From a virus (Duplodnaviria > Caudoviricetes): 64,000 nucleotides of DNA. The stretch spans positions 86,989 through 150,988 of the IMG/VR virus record IMGVR_UViG_3300014205_000180. One strand, written 5' to 3'. Shown piece after piece: positions 12,381-60,955 of the stretch (position 1 is its first letter; each line of letters starts with the position of its first letter). A model generated the notes under the pieces. That model saw nothing but the letters and a program-made list of their open reading frames with translations. It had not been told where the DNA came from and ran no database searches. The translations under genes were made by a program, and so were the position numbers.

Positions 12381-12411
12381 TCTTTAAATACGAACAAAAA
12401 TTAAATAAAAA

Positions 12412-22234: not shown

Positions 22235-22253
22235 TAATTTTAAATACTATAAT

Positions 22254-44195: not shown

Positions 44196-44525
44196 TTAAA
44201 ATAACAATTTCTTAATTTTAGACCAGTCAACAGAATGATCATCAGTTAACGGTGTTCCTATATTTCTATCATCAATACAGAAATTGAAAAACGGCTTATT
44301 CTTCTCAACTCTATCATATGGAATATCATATAACTTAAGATAATCTTCCATTTCATGAGTCATTCCAACAGCGTCATCAACACAATCAGGATTTGAACGA
44401 CAAGAATAAATTACTATAGTATGATTACATTCCTTTAATCTTTTTAACACCTCACGACATTCTTTTTGTGGAGGTGAATCACTATTAGGACAAATAGAAC
44501 CATCGAAATCAATAAAGTAAATCAT
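44196..44525 (-). CDS. small HAD-family phosphatase
   Basis: IDFDGSI, IYSCR, KP...IDDR. Confidence 0.85.
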   Translation of the reverse strand: MIYFIDFDGSICPNSDSPPQKECREVLKRLKECNHTIVIYSCRSNPDCVDDAVGMTHEMEDYLKLYDIPYDRVEKNKPFFNFCIDDRNIGTPLTDDHSVDWSKIKKLLF

Positions 44526-44836: not shown

Positions 44837-45118
44837 TCAAATACTTTTCTTTTTCTTTGCTAAATCAGCTATTTCATCTAAAGTCATAGTTGCGAAATTC
44901 AACTCTGACTTAATTGGCTGTTTAATTTTAAACGATTTTACTTTTTTAATCTGACCAGCTTTTTTACGCAGCCATGCCATTATTTCTTTATGAACTTTAT
45001 CAGCCAATTCACATTCTTTATCATTGGTTGTATCAACATATCCGCTGCCAAAAGTTGAATCATAGTCTTGCCCCTCAAGACAAGCTGCTGCCATAGCGAA
45101 TAAGTCTTTTTTATTCAT
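44837..45118 (-). CDS. hypothetical protein
   Basis: ATGA coupling to 45115-46512. Confidence 0.6.
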   Translation of the reverse strand: MNKKDLFAMAAACLEGQDYDSTFGSGYVDTTNDKECELADKVHKEIMAWLRKKAGQIKKVKSFKIKQPIKSELNFATMTLDEIADLAKKKKSI

Positions 45119-46512
45119 ATCTTACCACACAACTTATCAACATTATGAGCATAGTCTTCACCTTTAACCCTATATAGTTTCTGTTTTTCAGCAGAAACTA
45201 ATTCTAGTTTATAAGTTGGCGTATATCCATCATATGCAATACCAAAATCAACAATTTCCCATACTGCATTGCCATCACTATATCTTTCACCAATCTTTAA
45301 TTTTCTAACGTATTTGCATAGACATTCACCATATTTCTGTTCATATTCTTTATACGTATCTTTTGATAAAGTCTTGCATGGGCAATTGCCATTGGTCCCA
45401 ACAGCTTTCTTTTTATAATGTTCAACATTAATCATTTCATCAGCATTGTCCTTCATCATTCCATCCATGATCTGTTTATCAAGAGTCCTCTTATAAATCC
45501 ACAGTCTTATATTCTGCAGATATTCAATAATAACCTTATCATCTTCATTATGCACATTCTTAATAAAACGATCCATCAATAAAGCTAGCAATATTTCATT
45601 AGTGAAACCATTAACTCCATGATCCTTTGCTGAACCATTTTGAAATGATAAGTGATGAGCCTTATAGAATGATAAACTAGTTCCACCATTATCAGGATTA
45701 GTAATTGTTACTATCCCTATCAACTCATTTTTGTACCAAAATACCTGGAGCTTCCTATTGCCGCTTATCTCCCAAGTCCCATCAGCTACTTCAAAAATGA
45801 TTTTTTTAGCGTCTTTCCTTTTGCATTCAAAAGGCAACAATATCATATAGTTATTATCATTCCATTGAACTTTAAATGATCTTGAAGATTGATCAGATAA
45901 TGCAAAAACTTCAATGCGCTTGTTAAGTCCATTAATACGATGCCATACTATTTCGCCTGCATAACCGTTATCAGGGAATATCTTCGGCTTATCTTCTATG
46001 CCAAAATCTTTTTTAACAGTCTCCCATTTATTGACTTTACTTAATTGGAAATCCTCAGATGCAACTATGGCTGATTCATTCATCTTGTTGACAGTTTTTA
46101 AATCATTATAAAGAGAGCCTAAAATTTTAATAGATTCAGTTAATTCTTCAACAGTTGGATCACTAACTATATCAATTGTACCATCTTTTTTATCAATTGT
46201 AACAACTCTGCGTCCAGGAGTAAATGGTTTAATAGTAATAAGATAATTTGAATCAATTACTCTACTAATTAATACATATTCAATACTAAAATTTTCACAG
46301 TGTTTATCAAAACCAATTATATTAGAAACATAAATATCAGAAAGTTTAACACCCTTCGAAATTAATTGATCAAAATGATTCTTTAAAATTATCTCAGCAC
46401 AAGGTCCATTTGGAAGGTGATAAATTCTAGATTCTGATGTTGGTTCAGAAGTTACATTAATTTCTTTGTATGGTAATAACTTGCGAATTAATTCAGTAGA
46501 AAGATTAGGCAT
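45115..46512 (-). CDS. multidomain protein containing a divergent Tad1-like domain
   Basis: LSFQNGSAKDHGVNGFTNEILLALLMDRF...LWIYKRTLDK matches the recalled Tad1-family pattern FQxG...GVNGxTxExLLx..xDRL...WxxxRTxDR; start ATG 46512 after GAGGA. Confidence 0.6.
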   Translation of the reverse strand: MPNLSTELIRKLLPYKEINVTSEPTSESRIYHLPNGPCAEIILKNHFDQLISKGVKLSDIYVSNIIGFDKHCENFSIEYVLISRVIDSNYLITIKPFTPGRRVVTIDKKDGTIDIVSDPTVEELTESIKILGSLYNDLKTVNKMNESAIVASEDFQLSKVNKWETVKKDFGIEDKPKIFPDNGYAGEIVWHRINGLNKRIEVFALSDQSSRSFKVQWNDNNYMILLPFECKRKDAKKIIFEVADGTWEISGNRKLQVFWYKNELIGIVTITNPDNGGTSLSFYKAHHLSFQNGSAKDHGVNGFTNEILLALLMDRFIKNVHNEDDKVIIEYLQNIRLWIYKRTLDKQIMDGMMKDNADEMINVEHYKKKAVGTNGNCPCKTLSKDTYKEYEQKYGECLCKYVRKLKIGERYSDGNAVWEIVDFGIAYDGYTPTYKLELVSAEKQKLYRVKGEDYAHNVDKLCGKI

Positions 46513-46610
46513 GGCGTCCTCATGAGACGCCACAGGCGGTTAGGATTTATTTCCCGTCGCTACTCTCCACACTTGGGATTGTAGCTATGCCGACCTGCGG
46601 CTGATGCTCT
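46510..46610 (-). ncRNA. structured 5' leader RNA, candidate riboswitch/translational switch
   Basis: P1 46590-46601 pairs with 46529-46539, enclosing two hairpins; alternative 9-bp stem 46510-46534 covers SD and AUG; GTATTTAAA box at 46614-46622. Confidence 0.6.
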
Positions 46611-46613
46611 AAC

Positions 46614-46622
46614 TTTAAATAC
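46614..46622 (-). promoter_or_regulatory. representative second promoter-like box GTATWTAAA
   Basis: copies at 12383, 22239, 47154, 49226 (minus) and 33341 (plus), mostly 4 nt before an ATG. Confidence 0.6.
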
Positions 46623-47154: not shown

Positions 47155-49221
47155 TTAAATACTTAGCTTCTTAAACACTAAAATTGGTTCATATGTCTTA
47201 TCTCTACCCATAAACGATGCCGTTTTCATCTCATGTTTATTAATAAGTTTGTATCCAAATTTTTCACCAATTGATTTACATAATTCTTCATGCCTTAACG
47301 GAATATTCAGAACAATTATCCCGCTAAATTTACTAAAAATATTGTTATATATTGGTTCAGTGACAGTATTTTTTGAATCTACCCCATGATATAATTCAGT
47401 TCCATCATATGGCGGAGATGTGAATAATAAATCACCTTGTTTAAAATCAACAGTAGATGAATCTGCTTGAATAAATTCACATTCACACTTTCCTAAACTA
47501 AAATTAATAAATTTCTTTAATTCATTATGAGATTCTATTACATTTTTGTTTAAGTCATATCCAATATATTTAATATTTTTATTCATGCATCCAATAAGTC
47601 TTCCTCCCCAGCCCATACTTGGATCAATAACTGTTCCACCATTAGGAAGATATAATTCATATATTTTGTGAGCTATCCATGGTTTAAATATAGAAACAGT
47701 AGTAAAATCCTTAAATTTCCTATTAATTAATTTCACCAAATTGTGAATATTAACATCTTTATCTTTCTCCCATAAATATTCAACTGCTTTTCTTAATACA
47801 GAAATATTTCCAGGTTCCCACGCTTGAGCAATATAATTATATTTATGATGGGTTGAATAATAAAAATGTTTAGAAAAATTCTTAATCAGTGATAATAACG
47901 GTTCTGCTTCAATATTAGAATTAAACAAATCTTTATCAGATTTTATTATTTCTTCATATCTTGATAAACCTTTTAATAATTTATGTCTTGAGCATTCTGG
48001 ATGAATAAATCCAAACTTTATTAAAAAATCAAAGCATTCATCACTTGTATTAAATAGTAACTTCCAGTTTAAACAATAATATTTATCAATATCTTCAATC
48101 GCAAGATCATAAAATTTACCATTCCAAACTTTAATGTCTCTATTATGTTTTTTAGCCACTAGAATTTGTTTAATTAATCTTGACCTATTTGGTCCAGGGA
48201 CAGTTGATTCTGATTTTGATTTAGCCTCAACTAAAGTATCGCCATTAATCATAAAATCAATGTTAGCACATACTCCAAGATATTTATATATTACAGGATT
48301 CTTTTCTAATGACTTTACATTTTCGTCTTTTGACATGTTTTCAATAAATGCAGTTTCAAGGATACTATCACATTCAATTCTTCCAAATTTTGAATCAATA
48401 ATCTTCTTATGGCCATGACCATCAAGTTTAGCTAACATTTCTTCTTTAGTCCTGAGTTCTATACTATTTCGTTTTAAAAAATATACGACATTTGCAACAT
48501 AAACATTTAATTCATCAGCTATAGAAGAAGCTGATCTATTATTTATGATATATTCATTATATAACCACACTCTATCATTTAATTCATTAATTTTTGAATC
48601 TCTCTTAACGTGTGTGCTTCTAATTTTTATGCCATGTTCCACTAATAATCCATAAATTAATGACATTGAACAATTTTTAATTTCACTAATTTTTTCTATG
48701 GTCAGTTTTTGTACAGAATACAAATCTTCCAATTCAGGTTTTAAAATAATTGGTTTATATTCATTAATATATCTTTTTACATTTAATCTGTCATAGGCAT
48801 CGTACACTGTTTGCTCTTTTACGTCTAAAATTCTTGATATTTCTCTACATGTCAAATTCTTATCAGCAAATTCTTTTAGTTTTACAGGATCGTTAAGATC
48901 AGGTGGCCTTTTTGCATCATTCATGGTTCTAAAAATAATATCCGGATAATTTTTAAGTAACTGCCTTTTTATTCTAGCAATTGGTGCTGAATATTCTTTA
49001 TGAAGAGCATCAAGGCTAATCCCAGATATATATTTATTATAAATATCAATAATAGGCAAAGGTTTCTCAACTGCTTTATTCATATGACCACTAATAATTT
49101 CAAATTTTTTAGCTAATGTTGATATTGTCCCAACATTTTTACCAGTCATCTTAGCAACTTGTGAGTAACTTAAACCTTGATCAGAAATAAGCGATTTAAG
49201 TAGTTCTTGAGTTATTTCCAT
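47155..49221 (-). CDS. multi-HTH + PD-(D/E)XK nuclease + amino (N4-C/N6-A) DNA methyltransferase fusion
   Basis: about five HTH repeats; CDSILE...IDF..LVEAK; VIDPSMGWGGRLIG (motif I) and LFTSPPY (motif IV). Confidence 0.8.
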   Translation of the reverse strand: MEITQELLKSLISDQGLSYSQVAKMTGKNVGTISTLAKKFEIISGHMNKAVEKPLPIIDIYNKYISGISLDALHKEYSAPIARIKRQLLKNYPDIIFRTMNDAKRPPDLNDPVKLKEFADKNLTCREISRILDVKEQTVYDAYDRLNVKRYINEYKPIILKPELEDLYSVQKLTIEKISEIKNCSMSLIYGLLVEHGIKIRSTHVKRDSKINELNDRVWLYNEYIINNRSASSIADELNVYVANVVYFLKRNSIELRTKEEMLAKLDGHGHKKIIDSKFGRIECDSILETAFIENMSKDENVKSLEKNPVIYKYLGVCANIDFMINGDTLVEAKSKSESTVPGPNRSRLIKQILVAKKHNRDIKVWNGKFYDLAIEDIDKYYCLNWKLLFNTSDECFDFLIKFGFIHPECSRHKLLKGLSRYEEIIKSDKDLFNSNIEAEPLLSLIKNFSKHFYYSTHHKYNYIAQAWEPGNISVLRKAVEYLWEKDKDVNIHNLVKLINRKFKDFTTVSIFKPWIAHKIYELYLPNGGTVIDPSMGWGGRLIGCMNKNIKYIGYDLNKNVIESHNELKKFINFSLGKCECEFIQADSSTVDFKQGDLLFTSPPYDGTELYHGVDSKNTVTEPIYNNIFSKFSGIIVLNIPLRHEELCKSIGEKFGYKLINKHEMKTASFMGRDKTYEPILVFKKLSI

Positions 49222-49345: not shown

Positions 49346-50827
49346 TCAGAGGTTGGAGACGTTGATCGTGCCGTAGAAAAGGCCGCCATCTTCGATAAGC
49401 TTCTTGCCGTAGCGGGTCATCACGCCCTTCGACGGGGTGTAGCTGTTCGGGTCGAGCACGGTCGGAGTGCTGAGCAGCGGGATGTACGGGGCGTAGAAGT
49501 AGCCGCTGTCCAGAGCACTGTTGCCCTTGAAGCCCATCAGGATCTTGCAATTCGGGAAGAGGGGATCCTTGTAGAGCTTCAGCTTGCCCTGGATGGTACC
49601 GGCATTGGTGATGCCAATGTCGATTCCATCGGTGGCGAGGACGTCCGAACCACGGAAGTCGTTCAGCTGCTCGAACTTGCTGGAGATATCCGCCGAAGTG
49701 ACCATCCAGTTGGCCGGTCCGCGCAGCGTGGTCCGGTGGATGACGTTGGCGACTTCCAGGGTCTTGTAGAGCAACGCGATGTTGCGGTCGATGAAGTTCA
49801 CCGAAGCGCCAGCAGCCGTTGCGAAGTTGTGGGTCGCACGGATACTGGAGGCGATGATCAGGTCGTTGATGATTTCACGGTCGATCTCAGCGACGATCTC
49901 ATCACCCATCAGGTCGGTCAGGGTGGCCTCAGCGTCCATGTTGTGCACGGACTTGAGATCCTGAGCCGCCTCAAGGCTCCACGAGGTCTTCAGTTTGCGG
50001 GTGATAGCCGAAACTGAGTCACTGTCGATTGACAGGGTGACTTCTGGCTGGAACGGGTTGTTCTCCAGATCGAACTCGTAGTCCACAGTCGCGTAGGCAC
50101 CAGTCGGGAGCGAGCCGGTGTAGGTCACAACGACCTGAGCCGTGTCGTGGTTGAACGACGTGCTGCCAGTGGTGTCGACCGACAGGCCGGTCACGTCACC
50201 AACCAGGACGGTATCAGGGTTGCCCTTGCTGTCGAAGCTGACCTGGAGCAGCGGGGTCGGGGTGTCGCAGGAGTTCGAATCAGCAGCGTGGACGTTGACG
50301 ACCACGGTTCCGGCCAGGACCGGCTTGTGGGCCAGCTGTCCACTGATCACGCCGCCAGCGATGGTGAGGTTCTCGTCCTTGACAGTCTGTGAACTGTAGT
50401 AGGGGTCGAGCGCCCAGCCGTTCTGACGAGCGTAAGCCTGCGAGGTGTTCTGGCGCATGATCTGCGTGCCAGCGACGGTCTGCCCCTTGGAGATGCCGTA
50501 GCGGTAGCGCACGTAGAAGATCAGCGAGGCGGGCTGGCTCATCGGCTGGACGCCAACGAGATTGTCCGCGATCAGCTTGGGGTAGCTCTTGCGCAGGAGC
50601 GGCAGAGCAAAGCGGGTGAAGTCCGCGATGTTGTTGGTGGTTGTTGCATCCTCGAAGAGAACCTTGCCACCCTTCATGTGGTTGTACTGGTTCTCCATGA
50701 CCGCAGCCATCAGTCCCATCTTGCGATTGGACTTGACTTCGGGCATCTTGTTGAGGACTTTGGCCCACTTGCGGACCTGTTCGTTCTTCTTGGCCTCGGT
50801 TAAGAGGATCTCTTGGCGCTTATTCAC
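49346..50827 (-). CDS. major capsid protein (T4 gp23-like)
   Basis: LVGVQPMSQP, TRKLKTSWSLEAAQDL, EIVAEIDREII, GYFYAPYIPL, KGVMTRYG. Confidence 0.97.
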   Translation of the reverse strand: MNKRQEILLTEAKKNEQVRKWAKVLNKMPEVKSNRKMGLMAAVMENQYNHMKGGKVLFEDATTTNNIADFTRFALPLLRKSYPKLIADNLVGVQPMSQPASLIFYVRYRYGISKGQTVAGTQIMRQNTSQAYARQNGWALDPYYSSQTVKDENLTIAGGVISGQLAHKPVLAGTVVVNVHAADSNSCDTPTPLLQVSFDSKGNPDTVLVGDVTGLSVDTTGSTSFNHDTAQVVVTYTGSLPTGAYATVDYEFDLENNPFQPEVTLSIDSDSVSAITRKLKTSWSLEAAQDLKSVHNMDAEATLTDLMGDEIVAEIDREIINDLIIASSIRATHNFATAAGASVNFIDRNIALLYKTLEVANVIHRTTLRGPANWMVTSADISSKFEQLNDFRGSDVLATDGIDIGITNAGTIQGKLKLYKDPLFPNCKILMGFKGNSALDSGYFYAPYIPLLSTPTVLDPNSYTPSKGVMTRYGKKLIEDGGLFYGTINVSNL

Positions 50828-50856
50828 GGGATATCTCCGGTTGGATGGATGGTTGA

Positions 50857-51582
50857 TTAGGCGGTCAGCGATTCAGCGATGACGTCCATCTCTGATGCTG
50901 GCTGTGTTTCTTTGGCAGCAGCGACAGGCTGTTTCTTAGCAGCGTTCTGCTTGTCTTCAGAAACCACAGTCTTTGGTTCGGCTGCGGCTTGCTTCTCATC
51001 AGCGAGAGTGGTCTTCTTCTCGGTTACCTTGCTCTCTTCGATTGTCTTCTCAAGGGTCTTGACCTGACCTTCCATGACCTTTTGACGGTGCATGGATTTC
51101 TCAGCTATCTCTGAGAGCTTGGCGGACTTAGCCTTCTCACGCTGGAGGGAAGCATTGGACTCGGCCAATTGCTTCTCAACAGCAGCCTTCTGTTCCATGG
51201 CAGCCTGGAGAGCCTGATCGTTTTTAGCGCCGTCCAAATTGATGCCTTCAAGCAATGCTTTGAGATGCTTGAGCTTTGTTACGGCTTCAGACTCTTCAAT
51301 CGCGTGCTTCTTGGAAGCAGCCTTTTCGATCGCAGTGACCTTCGACTCGATGAATCTCTGGACACCACGTGCGAGAGCGGATTTGTGAGCTTCGGTTTCT
51401 TCGACGCAGATCTGCTTGGCCTTATTCAGGCGCTGAGTGAACTCTTCCTTAAGAGCTTTCTCTTTAGCGGCGAAGTGCTCATTAACAATGCCAGAAAATT
51501 CTTTAATAGCTGCCTCAGAGATATTCATCTTCTTGAGGATTGATTCGATTTTGCTGAGATCCATCTTTTGTTCCTTTGTCAT
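50857..51582 (-). CDS. prohead scaffold/core protein (gp22-like)
   Basis: charged coiled coil directly upstream of the MCP, many I/L-x-E-S sites. Confidence 0.75.
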   Translation of the reverse strand: MTKEQKMDLSKIESILKKMNISEAAIKEFSGIVNEHFAAKEKALKEEFTQRLNKAKQICVEETEAHKSALARGVQRFIESKVTAIEKAASKKHAIEESEAVTKLKHLKALLEGINLDGAKNDQALQAAMEQKAAVEKQLAESNASLQREKAKSAKLSEIAEKSMHRQKVMEGQVKTLEKTIEESKVTEKKTTLADEKQAAAEPKTVVSEDKQNAAKKQPVAAAKETQPASEMDVIAESLTA

Positions 51583-51610
51583 TAGGTGACGGGAATCGAG
51601 CTAGTTATTA

Positions 51611-51669
51611 GGTTAATTAACCCGATAAAGTAATTTTGTTGATCAACAAGTAATTCAGGATAATTATCC
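51611..51669. promoter_or_regulatory. cluster of three perfect palindromes in a divergent intergenic region
   Basis: GGTTAATTAACC (51611-22), TTGTTGATCAACAA (51636-49), GGATAATTATCC (51658-69). Confidence 0.55.
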
Positions 51670-51707
51670 ATGTATTTTATTATAAGTAAATAATTTCACA
51701 CACTAAT

Positions 51708-52349
51708 ATGAAAAAAATAAAAATCATATGTGTAGATTGTGGTTTAAAATATGAATTCCTACCAAGATGGACGATAAAGAACGATCCAAAAAAATTCGTC
51801 TGCAGAAATTGTAAAATTAAAAAGACTACTCAGTCTAAGAAGTTTAAGGATGAATCACGTGAAAGATCTATAAAGAATTTATCTAATGAAATAACAAAAT
51901 CGAAGATGAGTATAATTGCAACTATAAATAATGCTAAAAATGCTGCTAAGATAAGTGAATCATTAAGGAAATTTTATCAAAATTCTAAGAATAAATCTAA
52001 TAGTAGTGATAATATTAAAAAATTATGGAAGTCTAAGAATTATAGGGATAGGATAACCGATAAGATTAGAGAAAAATGGCAGCAAGATGAATATAGATCA
52101 AAAGTGCTAGCTTCTAAAGATAAAATTGATATGAATATGAAATTCAGTTCAAAAGACCATAATGATCTTAAAAAGAGATTAATAAAATCTGGAATTAAAT
52201 TCGAAGAGAATTTTTATCTTGGCATACATAAGTTCGATTTCTTAATAAATGATAAGGTAATTGTAGATCTTGAAGCAGATGATGTTAAAAAATTATTTGC
52301 TGAACACTATTTTAAACAATATAAATATCAGACTATTTATAATGTCTGA
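51708..52349 (+). CDS. homing-endonuclease-like basic protein (Zn ribbon, NUMOD-like helices, degenerate DUF559/Vsr-like C-terminus)
   Basis: CVDC..CRNC; KISESLRK and KKLWKSKNYR repeats; HKFDFLI..VIVDLEAD truncated nuclease. Confidence 0.6.
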   Translation: MKKIKIICVDCGLKYEFLPRWTIKNDPKKFVCRNCKIKKTTQSKKFKDESRERSIKNLSNEITKSKMSIIATINNAKNAAKISESLRKFYQNSKNKSNSSDNIKKLWKSKNYRDRITDKIREKWQQDEYRSKVLASKDKIDMNMKFSSKDHNDLKKRLIKSGIKFEENFYLGIHKFDFLINDKVIVDLEADDVKKLFAEHYFKQYKYQTIYNV

Positions 52350-54310: not shown

Positions 54311-54970
54311 TTATTTTCTAAAAGTAAGCTTGGTTTCAGCTAAGAATTGCTTTTCAAGATCAATACGTGACTTATCACGAGCAACGCGAATCTTGCTCTC
54401 CATAACATTTAGTTGAGTACCGCTAACTGATGGCTCGTTAACCGCATCAAAAGTTACGAACTTAAATCCTGGCAGAACTCTATTGAATTCATTGCCGTCT
54501 TCATTGAGGTATGATTCAAGATCACCAACACCACGACTACTTATGCAAACTCTAACATCCTGATCGATGAGAGCCTTGACCATCTGACCTTTAGGCATCC
54601 CTTCAAGAATTTCAAACTGACCATAAACATTCTTGCCTTCCATCCACAGCTTGGTCAGAAGGATAGCTGCATTCTCAGTATGGATCTTAGCATCATCTGG
54701 GTGATCAAGTTCACCAAGAACCATTCTCTCTTTAATTGATGGTTGGAGAGCTTCGATGGACTCTACCATTACATCCATTGGATAGAAACGACCATTTTCG
54801 TTCGGAGTATCGGCTTTTTGGACAAGACTGATTAACCGTGTTACAGGACGCTTACCAGATCCGTTTGCCGACTCGGCAAGAATCGAGTCTTGCTTAATCA
54901 CCTTAAGAGGGTAATAATCTCTAATTACCTGATTCTTGGTGATTATACGGTTAGTCATGACTTGGGGCAT
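54311..54970 (-). CDS. prohead protease (T4 gp21-like)
   Basis: NENGRFYP, LGELDHP, ISSRGVG, FDAVNEPS. Confidence 0.95.
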   Translation of the reverse strand: MPQVMTNRIITKNQVIRDYYPLKVIKQDSILAESANGSGKRPVTRLISLVQKADTPNENGRFYPMDVMVESIEALQPSIKERMVLGELDHPDDAKIHTENAAILLTKLWMEGKNVYGQFEILEGMPKGQMVKALIDQDVRVCISSRGVGDLESYLNEDGNEFNRVLPGFKFVTFDAVNEPSVSGTQLNVMESKIRVARDKSRIDLEKQFLAETKLTFRK

Positions 54971-57294: not shown

Positions 57295-58995
57295 TCAACC
57301 TGGGATATCTGACATTTTGACATCAGTATCCTCTTCAGTAATATTAGATTCAACTGATTCAAGGAATAATTTCATTTCAGCTATAACACTCTCTGATCCA
57401 CTCTTTTGGTTAAGCTTCCTGTTCTTATATAAGATACCATCAAGTTCATTTTCATTTAATAATTTATTAAATGATGCATGCGGACCAAACTTTATTCTTG
57501 ATTCTTCTACTTTTTCTAGAGCTTCCTTAAGAAGCATTTTATTATTTTCTTTAATCAATGATTCAAAGAAGTCTTCTTCACCCTCTCCACCACCTTCTTC
57601 GCCACCCTCTTTACCTTTTTTCTTCTTATTAATTTCCATAGTTCTCTTAATCACTTCAAGTTCATCTTTAGTAAGATCAGTGAATTTCTCTACTATCCAT
57701 TCATCTGGGAATATCCCAAGTTCTTTTAATCCTCCCATTATATCAACTCTACTAGCCCAAGTTTCTATTCTATATAATTCATCAATAGCACTGGCAGAAG
57801 TCATACTTAATTCAAAATCTTTCATATCATCAATACTAAACCCCTTCAGAGCCAGATGCACAAGAACTATCTTTTTAATACCAACTATTAATTGATCTTG
57901 TATCCATTGGATAGCTTTTGCAAATTCTGGAGATTGCTGAGCTACGGTCTTCGTCGAATCTGATCCTTCTTGTGCAAGGCCAACACGATTGAACGGTATC
58001 TTTAATGCTGATATTACTTTCTTCTTAAAGTATTCAATATCAGCTATCTCGCCAAGATTTTCAGCGCCCTTAAGGGTATCTATTTCAACACCAGAGCCAT
58101 CAGCAGCCATTGGTACCCAATAATCATCATCTTGGATATGCGGAGCATATTTTTCATTCATTGCACCGGTTGCTGGATCAATAAATTTATGTTTCTTAAA
58201 TCTTCTAGCTATAATTTGAATATACTGTTCGCGTTCTTTGGGAGGCAAATTACCAACAGGTACTTTGAATATTCTCTTCTCAGGAGCACGCACCAAACGA
58301 TAGATTAATGCAGCATCTTCCATCAATCTCAGTCTGCGCCAATCTCTACGAGCACCATCAAGTATTGATCTACCATATGGAACATATAATTGTTCAAAAT
58401 TTAACAGTCTAATATGAGAAACTTGCCATGGATTATAGTATACAGGTTGCTGGCCTGGAAGCTGGTAAAAGAATCCAACCAGATCGCCAAATTTTGTTTC
58501 AACTCTGGTAAAATTATACATGTACATCGTTTTAATAGATGCAACACCATCACGATTAGATGTTGGAACTATTTCACAAGCATAATCACCATATTTAGTA
58601 AGATATCTCGCTATCGGTCTGATCTGGGCATCTATATTAAGAACATTATATAATAAATCTTCAACTTCCTTTTTCAGTCTTATACTAGAAGTTTTTACAA
58701 ATATAGAGTGATTTCTTTCTGGATCTCTTAAAGAGCATTCATCTGCGTAAAGATCTAAAGCTAGCGATATTTCACCAACTTCATCCATCTGGTCATAATC
58801 TTTCATCCTCTCAAGTCTATTAATCTGAACGTTACTTTGTTCTATAAAGAAAGCTGGATCATTTATATCAATTATACCATTAGGATTAGTATAAACTTTC
58901 GCTGCATCTGGCTGATTTTGTAATATATTCTCGTGGGAAAATATATTAGCCCTCTTAAACAATAATCGGACCTTATCAAATAAAACAAAACTCAT
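57295..58995 (-). CDS. portal protein (T4 gp20-like)
   Basis: PYGRSILD, LMEDAALIYRLVRAPEKRIF.VPVGNLP, IDTLKGAENLGEIADIEYF. Confidence 0.96.
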   Translation of the reverse strand: MSFVLFDKVRLLFKRANIFSHENILQNQPDAAKVYTNPNGIIDINDPAFFIEQSNVQINRLERMKDYDQMDEVGEISLALDLYADECSLRDPERNHSIFVKTSSIRLKKEVEDLLYNVLNIDAQIRPIARYLTKYGDYACEIVPTSNRDGVASIKTMYMYNFTRVETKFGDLVGFFYQLPGQQPVYYNPWQVSHIRLLNFEQLYVPYGRSILDGARRDWRRLRLMEDAALIYRLVRAPEKRIFKVPVGNLPPKEREQYIQIIARRFKKHKFIDPATGAMNEKYAPHIQDDDYWVPMAADGSGVEIDTLKGAENLGEIADIEYFKKKVISALKIPFNRVGLAQEGSDSTKTVAQQSPEFAKAIQWIQDQLIVGIKKIVLVHLALKGFSIDDMKDFELSMTSASAIDELYRIETWASRVDIMGGLKELGIFPDEWIVEKFTDLTKDELEVIKRTMEINKKKKGKEGGEEGGGEGEEDFFESLIKENNKMLLKEALEKVEESRIKFGPHASFNKLLNENELDGILYKNRKLNQKSGSESVIAEMKLFLESVESNITEEDTDVKMSDIPG

Positions 58996-59035: not shown

Positions 59036-60955
59036 TCAGAAATACTGTTTTTTATTTTTTGTAGGCAATAGTGCTCTTTTCTTATCAACCATATCAGCAG
59101 TCAATCCACCAAGCTGAGTTGTAAACTGCATTATTGTTTCTTCAACAGTTTTTTCGATAGTTGTCTCAGTAGTGGTCATAATCGGATACATCAAATTATG
59201 ACCACCCTTCTGGATTATTTCCTCTAAACTTATATCTATTTTATCATCCATTGAATCATTAATGCTCTGTGAACTCATTGGTAACAAACCATCAGGAGTT
59301 TGTAGGGCATCAATAATACCCATGCAAGCTAATCCAGCAGCTATAACCAAGTCGTCATTATTACCAGATCCAGGTTCATTTCCAACTCTACTATTACCAA
59401 GATGTATAAAGCAATTGAGTTCTCTAACAAGCCTAGACGATTTCATTTTAATTCCACGATCACCAACCCCAATACTTTCAGTTATTGATTTTACAATGTG
59501 TCCTTTAGTAGTTGGTCCAGTTGGAAATCCAGGTTTTTTATCTTTTTTACCATTAGATAATCTTCTATAAAACATATTCGGATAAAATAATTGGTTCTTC
59601 AAGTCTTGAACAACAGCTTCACCAATACCTGTTCTTTCCACAACTATTAACGCATCATTGTAAAATCTGCCGAGATAATCGAGCATTTTTGAAAATTCAT
59701 CAATCGGGCATTTAATTTTTAATTCTGCAACTTGTTCAGAATCAGTTACGTCAATTATTTCTGCAGCGTGAAAGTCTGTTGATTCACCGGTTGATACGTC
59801 AGCACCTATTGCGTATCTATGGCCACCATCTCCTGGCTTTATTATCCTATTAACAGTATCAGTAATAGCAGCAACTCTTCTGATAGGCATATTCCAAATC
59901 CATAAATGCTTATTGAAATTTAAAACATATTTGTCATTAAGATTAGGGTTCATATAAGTAATCGGTTTACTGATTACTTTAAAATTAGTATCAACTTCTT
60001 CTGATACTTTAGTGATAGCGTCTTTATCAAGTACAGTATTTCCGGCACCAATAAATTCCATCAATATTTCTTGTCTAAACTTCCAAGATTCTCCCTTTTC
60101 TTGAAGTTCTCTATATTGAGTTTCTAACCAAGGACTCTTAAATTCACCATATCTTGCTTTATCTTCTTCAGTTTCACATTTGACTATGTTATCGCATGGA
60201 GCGATTCTAACTTTACGCTTAGTAATATCATCAGTAAATTCAATAGACCAATTCATCTTAAACCATGGAATCTCTATAACCTTAAACGAATTCTTCCCTT
60301 CTTTAGCGTCTTCAATAGTATTAAAGTACCAACCACCACGTCCATTGGTTGTACTGATTACGATAACACTACCACCATGCATCAAAGTCGGTTGACCAGC
60401 AAGCCACATTGCTTCCATATCTGCAATGAATGCAGCCTCATCTATGATAACTAATGAAGCAGTATTAGAACGAAGAGTATCTTTTGAACTTGTTAAAGAC
60501 TTTATTTCTGAGCCTTGAAAGAAACCAACTGTATGTTCATTCCACAATTTAGGAGGAGCATATCTCTTGTTCATCCCAGAACGTGGATCACCAAAAACGC
60601 AATGGAATATTTCTGATGGTAGATTCTCGTAAACGAATTTTACGTTTCTATCAAGATAGCCAATAGCATCTTCATCTCTCTTGCTGACAATCAAAATTTT
60701 CTTGTTTGGATGGAACATTGCCACCCATAAAACATAAGCGCCAGTTAATGTAGAAATACCAGATTGACGGCATTTTAAATAAACTATTCTATCACTGCTT
60801 TGAAATTCTCTTACCGATTCTTTTTGATATTCAAATAGTTTAAATGGAATAATACCAGCATTTGGATGCTTAATTTTACAAAAGTTTTCACAAAAATATA
60901 AAAACGATTCTTTACATCTTCGTAATATTTCTTTCTTTTGTTCTTTTGTAATCAT
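59036..60955 (-). CDS. terL: terminase large subunit (T4 gp17-like)
   Basis: LFEYQ, KCRQSGIST (Walker A), IIDEAAFI (Walker B), ISTTNG, FRQE, GADVSTG, NDDLVIA. Confidence 0.96.
   Translation of the reverse strand: MITKEQKKEILRRCKESFLYFCENFCKIKHPNAGIIPFKLFEYQKESVREFQSSDRIVYLKCRQSGISTLTGAYVLWVAMFHPNKKILIVSKRDEDAIGYLDRNVKFVYENLPSEIFHCVFGDPRSGMNKRYAPPKLWNEHTVGFFQGSEIKSLTSSKDTLRSNTASLVIIDEAAFIADMEAMWLAGQPTLMHGGSVIVISTTNGRGGWYFNTIEDAKEGKNSFKVIEIPWFKMNWSIEFTDDITKRKVRIAPCDNIVKCETEEDKARYGEFKSPWLETQYRELQEKGESWKFRQEILMEFIGAGNTVLDKDAITKVSEEVDTNFKVISKPITYMNPNLNDKYVLNFNKHLWIWNMPIRRVAAITDTVNRIIKPGDGGHRYAIGADVSTGESTDFHAAEIIDVTDSEQVAELKIKCPIDEFSKMLDYLGRFYNDALIVVERTGIGEAVVQDLKNQLFYPNMFYRRLSNGKKDKKPGFPTGPTTKGHIVKSITESIGVGDRGIKMKSSRLVRELNCFIHLGNSRVGNEPGSGNNDDLVIAAGLACMGIIDALQTPDGLLPMSSQSINDSMDDKIDISLEEIIQKGGHNLMYPIMTTTETTIEKTVEETIMQFTTQLGGLTADMVDKKRALLPTKNKKQYF

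What the first reader, a model, noticed from the sequence alone, without database searches (positions are those of the whole stretch)
45465..45705. Tad1-like sponge domain embedded in a 465-aa multidomain protein
Seen: NPDNGGTSLSFY..HHLSFQNGSAKDHGVNGFTNEILLALLMDRF...LQNIRLWIYKRTLDK. Established: Tad1 proteins are small stand-alone sponges for Thoeris gcADPR and CBASS cyclic oligonucleotides, with a pattern like GPGGA.H.Y...FQxG...GV...LL....DRL...RENA.A...EEAL.W...R..DR. Here the REN segment and the C-terminal Arg-rich end have diverged, and the domain is fused to about 270 aa of unknown N-terminal sequence and a Cys-containing tail. Inference: it is a multi-domain anti-defence protein, a sponge with altered ligand, or a signal-sensing domain controlling the fused parts.
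Basis: partly seen in the sequence, partly recalled or inferred. Interest (0 to 1): 0.72.

Follow-up and report, generated by a model that had tools for sequence, protein, structure and literature searches.

The report
Multidomain Tad1-like protein beside capsid gene
An uncultivated T4-like phage from landfill metagenomes encodes, right after its capsid gene, a 465-residue protein built around a real but heavily remodelled copy of the Tad1 "sponge" fold that phages use to soak up bacterial alarm molecules, so it is probably an anti-defence protein with a changed ligand and added modules.

Summary
Window 45115-46512 (minus strand) encodes a 465-aa protein (472 aa from an upstream GTG). Residues 293-356 match CmTad1 directly (phmmer E 3e-5). 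The AlphaFold2 model of residues 190-359 superposes on CbTad1 and CmTad1 (Z 7.0-7.5, about 110 residues, rmsd about 3 A).

It is a derived Tad1. The FQxG / GxNG / DR / W / KRTLD core is kept. The GPGGA loop, the FQxGPF loop, the C-terminal lid, six of eleven gcADPR contact residues and both cyclic-trinucleotide residues are lost or changed.

Only five relatives turned up in billions of proteins. The four with usable contigs lie in T4-like phages directly after the capsid gene gp23, each behind a conserved 105-nt structured leader.

Tad1 is not always small and stand-alone. PhiKZ gp184 is a 230-aa Tad1 that is packaged in the capsid and injected, and about a third of Tad1-type hits carry long N-terminal extensions.

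Best reading: a multidomain sponge-type anti-defence protein with an altered ligand, possibly delivered in the virion. It is a new variant of a known kind.

The parts
45115..46512 (-). Whole gene: 465 aa from the ATG at 46512 (472 aa if the GTG at 46533 is used); stop codon at 45115-45117.
   Evidence: ORF list and translation. The ATG start is supported by homologue P0003 and by GAGGA at 46517-46521.
46249..46512 (-). N-terminal domain 1 (residues 8-95), a small alpha/beta domain. It is optional in the family: absent from P0005, P0006 and P0007.
   Evidence: AF2 pLDDT is about 75-85 over residues 10-90. Family alignments. No Pfam or PHROG match, and no paralogue in the genome.
45967..46248 (-). 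Family-defining motif IKPxTPGRR..KDG..DIVSDPT..ELTE (residues about 100-136), followed by a helical linker (residues 137-189) that varies between strains.
   Evidence: Invariant columns in A1. The motif is also in the minimal 240-aa member P0007. AF2 confidence is low, pLDDT 39-63. Of the 14 amino-acid differences to a landfill strain variant, 10 fall in residues 143-167.
45457..45966 (-). Tad1-like module, residues 190-359: beta1-beta3, an insertion, beta4 with the FQNG loop, and a helical hairpin.
   Evidence: VIA-align Z 7.0-7.5 with rmsd 2.6-3.2 A over 109-112 residues, model 190-359 against Tad1 chain 2-119. Foldseek probability 1.00. pLDDT above 90. HMM matches.
45658..45828 (-). Insertion of 57 residues (236-292; one helix and three strands) between beta3 and beta4, marking the 'long Tad1' type.
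   Evidence: Secondary structure of the model. Alignment with long stand-alone Tad1 proteins P0010, P0016 and P0009 and with short canonical ones.
45465..45705 (-). The stretch named in the finding (residues 277-356): beta4, the FQNG/GVNG loop, helices alpha1 and alpha2.
45118..45393 (-). C-terminal Cys-containing domain (residues 381-472): CPC-x17-CxC, then a small beta unit and a helix. It is optional in the family: absent from P0005 and P0007.
   Evidence: Cys384, 386, 404 and 406 are invariant. Three homologues give consistent weak FeThRed_B matches, E 1e-3 to 6e-3, below the Pfam cut-off. The ESM Atlas model resembles DUF1653 at TM about 0.5, but that model is poor. AF2 of the domain alone reached only pLDDT 49.5.
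46513..46622 (-). Conserved structured 5' leader: a GTATTTAA box, a three-way junction (P1 pairs 46593-46601 with 46529-46537), and a hairpin at 46513-46531 that holds the Shine-Dalgarno sequence.
   Evidence: 82 invariant columns across four phages whose proteins are only 44-63% identical. RNAalifold finds 25 pairs. Fold z-score -2.84. No Rfam family matches. The covariance model finds it only upstream of this gene.

Best explanation
The gene encodes a multidomain, strongly derived member of the Tad1 sponge family from an uncultivated T4-like phage.

Shown:
- Residues 190-359 have the Tad1 fold (a four-stranded sheet plus a two-helix hairpin) of the 'long' type, with a three-strand insertion.
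- The beta4-alpha1 loop (FQNG..K..GVNG), R322, W345 and K348-R349-T-L-D-K353 are invariant in the family.
- The family core is a conserved N-terminal motif plus the Tad1 module. N-terminal domain 1 and the Cys4 C-terminal domain are optional additions.
- The gene sits directly after the capsid gene in the four related phages whose contigs could be examined, each time behind a conserved structured leader.

Inferred:
- The module still assembles through its helical hairpin into dimers or higher oligomers, and sequesters a nucleotide-derived immune signal in pockets lined by G300, K303, R322, R349 and K353.
- Because the GPGGA loop, the FQxGPF loop, the lid and the cyclic-trinucleotide residues are gone or changed, the ligand or binding mode differs from canonical 1''-2'/1''-3' gcADPR and cA3.

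Inferred by analogy with PhiKZ gp184/Tad1 (about 35-40% likely): the N-terminal extension targets the protein to the prohead, the T4-type S77 protease releases the sponge part, and the sponge enters the next host cell with the DNA.
For: Homology and fold.

Residues kept: F297, Q298, G300, K303, G306, G309, E313, R322, W345, K348, R349, D352 and K353 are invariant in the family. G300, R322 and R349 correspond to the CbTad1 ligand contacts G55, R78 and R109, with K353 a conservative replacement of R113. The contact list is from bioRxiv 10.1101/2022.05.03.490397.

Purifying selection: a strain variant in an independent landfill study has 14 amino-acid changes. One (W224L) lies in the replaced beta2-beta3 loop and none lies in residues 225-472.

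Context: the phage has a T4-type terminase, portal, S77 prohead protease and gp23. The same gene order, gp23 then a mobile gene then this gene, is seen in L001, L002 and L005.

Precedent for large, virion-borne Tad1: PhiKZ gp184 matches the Tad1 profile at E 9e-27. It lies on the inner capsid surface and is cut by the head protease (PMC11297242). It is described as injected Tad1 (bioRxiv 10.1101/2025.11.23.690004; PMC13282480).

Sponge fusions are known for Tad2, Acb4 and Sequestin (bioRxiv 10.1101/2025.07.12.664507).
Against: - Six of the eleven CbTad1 gcADPR contacts have no equivalent: H29->N227, R57->A302, F82 and F87 in a loop shortened by 4-6 residues, G120 and N122 in a lid that is replaced. 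N92 is D332.
- Both cyclic-trinucleotide residues (CmTad1 R88 and T95) are acidic here, E330 and E337.
- No ligand, oligomer or anti-defence test was possible.
- For the packaging part there is no similarity to the gp184 N-terminus. No recognisable T4 capsid-targeting sequence was seen; this rests on my own reading of the N-terminus from memory of the T4 sequence, not on a tool.
- The one family-conserved L-x-E site (L131-T-E133) is L-T-D in P0007.
- The gene has its own promoter-like box and leader. The genes downstream are small accessory genes, so the position after gp23 may only be the edge of a variable region.
Confidence: 0.5

Rival explanations
1. The Tad1 fold has been co-opted for a non-sponge role. 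The protein would be a minor head or assembly protein whose Tad1-derived module serves only as an oligomerisation or docking scaffold, with no small-molecule ligand.
For: - Four of the structural elements that enclose the ligand in Tad1 are lost or changed: the GPGGA loop, the FQxGPF loop, the lid and H29.
- The position in the head-gene module is conserved in four phages.
- PhiKZ gp184 is physically part of a capsid vertex complex.
- Tad1 homologues of Lactococcus phage 1706 and several Bacillus phages are annotated as structural proteins.
Against: - The residues that remain invariant are exactly those of the beta4-alpha1 ligand loop and the Arg/Lys pair of helix alpha2. That pattern is not expected for a mere scaffold.
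- The two domains that vary (N-terminal domain 1 and the C-terminal domain) can be lost, while the Tad1 module never is.
- The gp184 Tad1 part is reported to be released and injected, not structural.
Confidence: 0.2
2. It is a signal-sensing protein. The Tad1-derived pocket would detect a host nucleotide signal and switch the activity of the fused Cys4 C-terminal domain or the N-terminal domain, acting as a sensor-effector rather than a stoichiometric sponge.
For: - The long helix alpha2 runs on without a break from the pocket residues (R349, K353) into the linker to the C-terminal domain in the model (H330-377).
- The canonical lid is replaced by this connection.
- The C-terminal domain has an invariant CPC-x17-CxC motif, weakly like the redox/FeS motif of ferredoxin-thioredoxin reductase.
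Against: - P0005 and P0007 lack the C-terminal domain and end shortly after the pocket like ordinary Tad1, so the core function does not need an effector.
- The FeThRed_B matches are below the Pfam threshold and lack the third Cys pair.
- No enzymatic domain was detected.
Confidence: 0.1
3. It is an ordinary cytoplasmic Tad1 sponge with the canonical ligands (gcADPR and/or cyclic oligonucleotides), simply decorated with extra domains that add stability or a second binding specificity, as in the Tad2-Acb4 fusions.
For: - Sponge-sponge fusions are documented.
- Tad1 homologues across the family tree inhibit Thoeris and CBASS (PMC12393519).
- R322, R349 and K353 are kept.
Against: - The adenine-stacking F82, the ribose-buttressing F87, H29 and the lid residues are missing, and N92 is Asp.
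- The cyclic-trinucleotide site is acidic.
- The flanking domains match no known sponge family.
Confidence: 0.15

Closest known systems
Tad1 (Thoeris anti-defence 1; SBSphiJ7 Tad1, CbTad1 7UAV/7UAW, CmTad1 8KBB)
   Same: - Same fold (beta-sheet plus two-helix hairpin), with significant sequence homology.
- Shared motifs: FQxG, GxNG, E, DR, W and KRTxD(R/K).
- Phage-encoded.
   Different: - 465 aa against about 110-145 aa.
- A 57-residue beta insertion.
- The GPGGAxH loop is replaced, the FQxGPF loop is shortened, there is no RGVEGT lid, N92 is Asp, R113 is Lys, and the cyclic-trinucleotide residues are acidic.
- Extra N- and C-terminal domains.
PhiKZ gp184 / Tad1 (PDB 8Y6V chain I)
   Same: A Tad1 domain at the end of a longer protein with an N-terminal extension, in a large myovirus. 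It is the precedent for a Tad1 that is built into the head, cut by the head protease and injected.
   Different: - gp184 keeps the canonical pocket (GYQAGPF, EEN, QR..RR, GTEGT).
- Its N-terminus is acidic and unrelated.
- It has no C-terminal domain.
- Its virion location is shown experimentally, whereas here it is only inferred.
Long stand-alone Tad1 proteins from metagenomes (for example P0010, P0016, P0024; 170-200 aa)
   Same: Same N-terminal H-R-x-N-G-L-N strand and the same kind of insertion between beta3 and beta4. They are the closest non-family hits (E 2e-19 to 2e-13).
   Different: They keep all canonical ligand loops and the lid, and have no further domains.
Fused phage sponges (Tad2-Acb4, Tad2-Sequestin, Acb4-Sequestin)
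   Same: One polypeptide that combines a sponge domain with other modules.
   Different: In those fusions both halves are recognisable sponge families. Here the added domains match nothing known, and Tad1 fusions of this kind turned up in none of the papers searched and read here.
T4 internal proteins (IPI*, Alt), as a functional analogue only
   Same: In a T4-type phage, an anti-defence protein is packed into the head by an N-terminal targeting segment, trimmed by the gp21-type protease and injected with the DNA (from my own knowledge of T4 biology).
   Different: There is no sequence relationship, and no recognisable T4 capsid-targeting sequence in this protein. Packaging is not shown.

Membership tests
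Tad1 family | Significant sequence homology to characterised Tad1 proteins | tested here: met
   phmmer hit to CmTad1 8kbb at E 3.2e-5. The family profile retrieves Tad1-type proteins, and their joint profile hits all Tad1 PDB entries at E 1e-33 to 1e-40.
Tad1 family | Fold: N-terminal antiparallel beta-sheet plus a C-terminal two-helix hairpin | tested here: met
   AF2 pLDDT above 90 over residues 190-360. VIA Z 7.0-7.5 with rmsd 2.6-3.2 A over about 110 of 118-131 residues. Foldseek probability 1.00. Caveat: in the wide search, unrelated helical hairpins reach Z 6-7 over 55-70 residues.
Tad1 family | beta4-alpha1 ligand loop (FQxG..K..GxNG; backbone contact of G55) | tested here: met
   F297, Q298, G300, K303, G306 and G309 are invariant in the family, and these columns (apart from K303) are nearly invariant across 150 Tad1-type proteins.
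Tad1 family | beta2-beta3 ligand loop GPGGAxH (H29 contacts the ribose-ribose linkage) | tested here: not met
   Replaced by a longer, unrelated loop (residues about 213-226). H29 aligns with N227.
Tad1 family | alpha1-alpha2 loop FQxGPF (F82 stacks on adenine, F87 buttresses the ribose) | tested here: not met
   The loop is 4-6 residues shorter in all six family members and neither Phe is alignable. The invariant F323 sits three positions earlier and might substitute, but this was not tested.
Tad1 family | Helix alpha2 contacts N92, R109 and R113 (the REN...KRTxDR motif) | tested here: inconclusive
   R349 is kept. R113 is K353 (Arg only in P0007). N92 is D332 in four members and Asn in P0003 and P0007.
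Tad1 family | C-terminal lid (R)GVEGT(N), which closes over the ligand (G120, N122) | tested here: not met
   After K353 the chain continues as QIMDGMM.. into a linker helix and the C-terminal domain. Short xEGx tails remain only in P0005 and P0007.
Tad1 family | Cyclic-trinucleotide site (CmTad1 R88 and T95) | tested here: not met
   These align with E330 and E337; across the family the positions are E/D/T and E/N/D. This site is not universal in Tad1.
Tad1 family | Homodimer or hexamer with pockets at subunit interfaces | not testable with these tools
Of the CmTad1 hexamer-interface residues, Q98, W103 and K106 are kept as Q340, W345 and K348, and M102 is L344.
Tad1 family | Binds gcADPR or cyclic oligonucleotides and inhibits Thoeris or CBASS | not testable with these tools
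   This needs biochemistry or a co-expression assay.
Virion-packaged Tad1 (PhiKZ gp184 type) | Tad1 domain preceded by an N-terminal extension | tested here: met
   About 180 residues precede the module. The extension is unrelated in sequence to that of gp184.
Virion-packaged Tad1 (PhiKZ gp184 type) | Presence in the capsid, processing by the head protease, and injection | not testable with these tools
   Only circumstantial evidence exists: the gene follows gp23 in four phages, an S77 protease is present, and there is one conserved L-x-E site at residues 131-133.

The most novel reading that the evidence does not exclude
The Tad1-derived module has evolved a new pocket for an immune signal not yet assigned to any Tad1. 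Its synthesis is gated by a new riboswitch-like leader that frees the ribosome-binding site when a host nucleotide signal appears. The protein is also loaded into the T4-type head through its N-terminal motif and injected. It would then be a sponge that is both pre-delivered and inducible on demand.
Probability: 0.1. Interest if true: 0.85.

Novelty: new variant of a known kind. Interest (0 to 1): 0.55.

Why it matters
Tad1 has served as a tool to discover immune signals, since gcADPR was identified in its pocket. A natural Tad1 whose fold and basic pocket residues are conserved, but whose ligand-enclosing loops have been rebuilt, is a good place to look for a new ligand or a new binding mode.

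The family also extends the PhiKZ observation of large, head-associated Tad1 proteins to T4-like phages. It adds two orphan domains and a tightly conserved structured leader, the last of which would be a rare case of RNA-level control of a phage counter-defence gene. If the module turns out to be a pure scaffold, it would show how a sponge fold is recycled.

Tried and rejected
- Known phage genomes: neither tblastn of the protein nor megablast of 12 kb of the window matched anything in the 50,697 phage records.
- Family libraries for the whole protein: Pfam gave only a sub-threshold FeThRed_B match; NCBIfam and PADLOC gave nothing.
- Flanking domains: Pfam and PHROGs at loose thresholds gave nothing usable. 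The exhaustive profile search listed no match outside the Tad1 part among its best 150 hits, so none stronger than E about 2e-5. There are no paralogues in the phage record.
- ESM Atlas: no feature hits. Its own model is poor (pLDDT 0.44), so the DUF1653-like and TriTu-like structural neighbours are only leads.
- The C-terminal domain folded alone gave pLDDT 49.5, so I did not search with it.
- The wide fold search and BFVD showed nothing for the N- or C-terminal domains, but those lists were filled by the helical hairpin, so those parts are effectively untested.
- The T4 late-promoter consensus TATAAATA is not next to the gene and is not enriched in the window. GTATTTAA is not enriched either.
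- I looked for L/I-x-E protease sites. Only four are present, about the number chance would give, and one is conserved. This is compatible with processing but is not evidence for it.
- Leader RNA: no Rfam family matched on the leader strand. A looser DNA pattern gave 17 further viral contigs, none of which matched the covariance model, so they are chance hits.
- Sequencing runs: the RNA-library contig covers only 46220-46466. The rest of the gene and the leader had no cover in that run, which shows nothing either way.
Full report
**What is there**

Window 45115-46533 on the minus strand is one open frame of 472 codons from a GTG. Homologue P0003 starts at the same MP.LST, and GAGGA lies 4 nt upstream. 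All strings quoted in the finding are present. Its coordinates, 45465-45705, cover residues 277-356.

**Genomic setting**

The window is the last 64 kb of a 150,988-bp IMG/VR virus record estimated at 60% complete. It is a T4-like phage. On the same strand lie:
- the large terminase (59036-60955),
- the gp20 portal (57295-58995),
- an S77 prohead protease (54311-54970),
- the gp23 major capsid protein (49346-50827).

Downstream of gp23 come a 688-aa HTH-rich gene with weak HNH-family and methyltransferase matches (47155-49221), a 114-aa ORF, a conserved non-coding leader, and then this gene. No record in the phage collection resembles it. The DNA occurs in landfill metagenomes. A run from a second study holds the whole stretch at 97.8% identity.

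**Is it Tad1?**

Yes.
- phmmer against every PDB sequence returns CmTad1 (8kbb) at E 3.2e-5, residues 293-356 against chain 57-124.
- PHROG 2428 matches at 3.5e-9.
- Only five relatives exist in the large protein collections: 457, 475, 410 and 297 aa and a 240-aa one, P0007.
- A profile of the five sequences of A1 finds 459 proteins at E<=1e-3 among 1.84 billion representatives. Every listed best stretch lies in profile positions 178-368.
- A profile of those hits matches all Tad1 crystal structures at 1e-33 to 1e-40.
- The AlphaFold2 model has mean pLDDT 75, and above 90 over residues 190-360.
- Foldseek puts Tad1 first with probability 1.00.
- VIA-align gives Z 7.0-7.5 and rmsd 2.6-3.2 A over 109-112 residues, aligning model 190-359 with chain 2-119.
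- In the Foldseek-independent search Tad1 is again first (Z 7.3 and 7.2). Unrelated helical hairpins follow at Z 6-7 over only 55-70 residues, so the fold evidence leans on coverage and on the independent sequence evidence.

**Corrected anatomy**

The Tad1 module is residues 190-359, not 277-356.
- It starts with the conserved strand E-I-x-x-H-R-x-N-G-L-N (residues 194-204), the N-terminal motif of the family.
- A helix and three strands (residues 236-292) are inserted between beta3 and beta4. The same is seen in 170-200-aa 'long' stand-alone Tad1 proteins, which are the closest non-family hits.
That loop's position is about residues 213-229, and the motif is gone.

**Residue map against the published pockets**

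CbTad1 contacts 1''-2' gcADPR with F82, R109, N92, R57, R113, G120, F87, H29, G55, R78 and N122. Four loops enclose the ligand: beta2-beta3, beta4-alpha1, alpha1-alpha2 and the C-terminal lid (bioRxiv 10.1101/2022.05.03.490397). The equivalents here, are:

| CbTad1 contact | This protein |
|---|---|
| G55 | G300 (kept) |
| R78 | R322 (kept) |
| R109 | R349 (kept) |
| R113 | K353 (conservative) |
| N92 | D332 (Asn in two relatives) |
| H29 | N227 |
| R57 | A302 |
| F82, F87 | fall in a loop that is 4-6 residues shorter |
| G120, N122 | belong to a lid that is replaced by a helix running into the C-terminal domain |

The cyclic-trinucleotide residues of CmTad1 (R88 and T95; PMC10680739) align with E330 and E337. 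Of the hexamer-interface residues, Q340, W345 and K348 are kept and M102 is L344.

So the fold, one ligand loop and the basic residues of helix alpha2 are under strict conservation (invariant columns). The rest of the enclosure has been rebuilt. The strain variant from the second landfill study carries 14 amino-acid changes. Ten are in the linker at residues 143-167, one (W224L) lies in the replaced beta2-beta3 loop, and none lies in residues 225-472.

**Family architecture**

All members share the motif IKPxTPGRR..KDG..DIVSDPT..ELTE, a helix and the Tad1 module.
- N-terminal domain 1 (residues 8-95) is missing from P0005, P0006 and P0007.
- The C-terminal domain (residues 381-472, with invariant CPC-x17-CxC) is missing from P0005 and P0007, which end shortly after the pocket with short xEGx tails.

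Neither added domain has relatives elsewhere. Three homologues give weak but consistent sub-threshold matches of the Cys motif to ferredoxin-thioredoxin reductase beta. A poor Atlas model resembles DUF1653. Both are leads only.

**Is a large Tad1 unusual?**

- The profile also hits PDB 8y6v chain I, PhiKZ gp184 (E 9e-27).
- It is treated in the literature as PhiKZ Tad1, whose C-terminal part is liberated and injected (bioRxiv 10.1101/2025.11.23.690004; PMC13282480).
- Among 153 Tad1-type proteins, 57 have more than 100 residues before the FQxG core, and 10 have more than 60 residues after it. Four of those ten are this family, and the others keep the RGVEGT lid.
- Some Tad1 homologues are annotated as structural proteins, for example Lactococcus phage 1706 orf71.

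**Conserved position and leader**

In the three relatives with usable contigs (L001, L002, L005) the gene again follows gp23, after a LAGLIDADG-type or HTH-rich mobile gene or two small genes of unknown function.

In all four loci it is preceded by a leader of about 105 nt that is far better conserved than the coding sequence: 82 invariant columns, while the proteins are 44-63% identical.
- It folds into a three-way junction with a 9-bp closing stem.
- The 3' strand of that stem overlaps a hairpin that sequesters the Shine-Dalgarno sequence (z -2.84).
- It matches no Rfam family.
- It occurs nowhere else in the record or in the fetched loci.
- The three substitutions in the strain variant all fall at unpaired positions.

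With four sequences, covariation support is minimal: one compensatory pair.

**Interpretation**

The most economical reading is an anti-defence protein of the sponge type whose pocket has been remodelled, hence an altered ligand or binding mode. It is built on a family-specific N-terminal motif and optionally carries two orphan domains.

Three things make delivery through the virion a serious sub-hypothesis, at about 35-40%: the head-module position, the T4-type protease, and the PhiKZ precedent. Nothing here shows it. The extension is unrelated to gp184. The one conserved L-x-E site (residues 131-133) is no more than chance would allow and is L-T-D in P0007.

A scaffold-only role and a sensor role cannot be excluded. 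An RNA-library contig identical to 46220-46466 is only a weak hint of transcription.

**Novelty**

The Tad1 family, long forms and a packaged form are known, so this is not a new kind. New here are:
- the combination of a rebuilt pocket (no GPGGA loop, no FQxGPF loop, no lid, an acidic cyclic-trinucleotide site),
- two orphan domains,
- a fixed position after gp23 in T4-like phages,
- a dedicated structured leader.

That makes it a new variant of a known kind and a reasonable target for ligand discovery.

Noticed in passing
window 46513-46622 (-); also L001 9890-10003, L002 9890-10003, L005 7437-7551: A 5' leader of about 105 nt, much better conserved than the gene it precedes. It forms a three-way junction plus a hairpin that sequesters the Shine-Dalgarno sequence. 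It has no Rfam match and is unique in the genome. It is a candidate riboswitch or protein-binding operator for the Tad1-like gene. Only one compensatory pair is seen among four sequences. Three strain-variant changes all fall at unpaired positions.
   Followed up: partly
window 47155-49221 (-); L001 8173-9897; L005 5195-7444: The slot between gp23 and the Tad1-like gene holds a different large mobile-looking gene in each phage. Here it is an HTH array with weak HNH-family and N6/N4 methyltransferase matches. In L001 it is a LAGLIDADG-type gene, and in L005 an HTH-rich 749-aa gene.
   Followed up: partly
L001 6504-7998; L002 1-1095: In L001 the gp23 capsid gene is called as two ORFs (303 and 197 aa, both PF07068), directly before a LAGLIDADG-type gene. 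In L002 the portal product carries faint intein and LAGLIDADG hits. This suggests introns or inteins in head genes of this phage group.
   Followed up: no
window 49346-50827 (-): The capsid gene region is much richer in G+C (0.49 in the 2-kb bin 50001-52000) than the window average of about 0.32.
   Followed up: no
window 45115-46512, residues 143-167: A strain variant in an independent landfill metagenome differs at 28 nucleotides in the gene. Ten of the 14 amino-acid changes cluster in the helical linker at residues 143-167, and one hits the otherwise invariant K102.
   Followed up: partly
window 44196-44525 (-): A 109-aa protein three genes downstream matches phrog_1238 (labelled phosphoheptose isomerase) and, weakly, HAD-type phosphatases. 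It may be a small nucleotide or sugar-phosphate phosphatase in the same accessory block.
   Followed up: no
L026 2372-2725 (Lactococcus phage 1706 orf71); L025 2354-2734 (Bacillus phage Bc431v3 orf166): Short canonical Tad1 homologues are annotated as structural proteins although they lie among replication genes. This hints that virion association of Tad1 may be wider than PhiKZ. I did not check the basis of these annotations.
   Followed up: partly
window 12384-12391, 22240-22247, 47155-47162 (-): The GTATTTAA box that opens the leader also sits 4-6 nt before the start codons of three other minus-strand genes. Its total count in the window is no higher than chance.
   Followed up: partly
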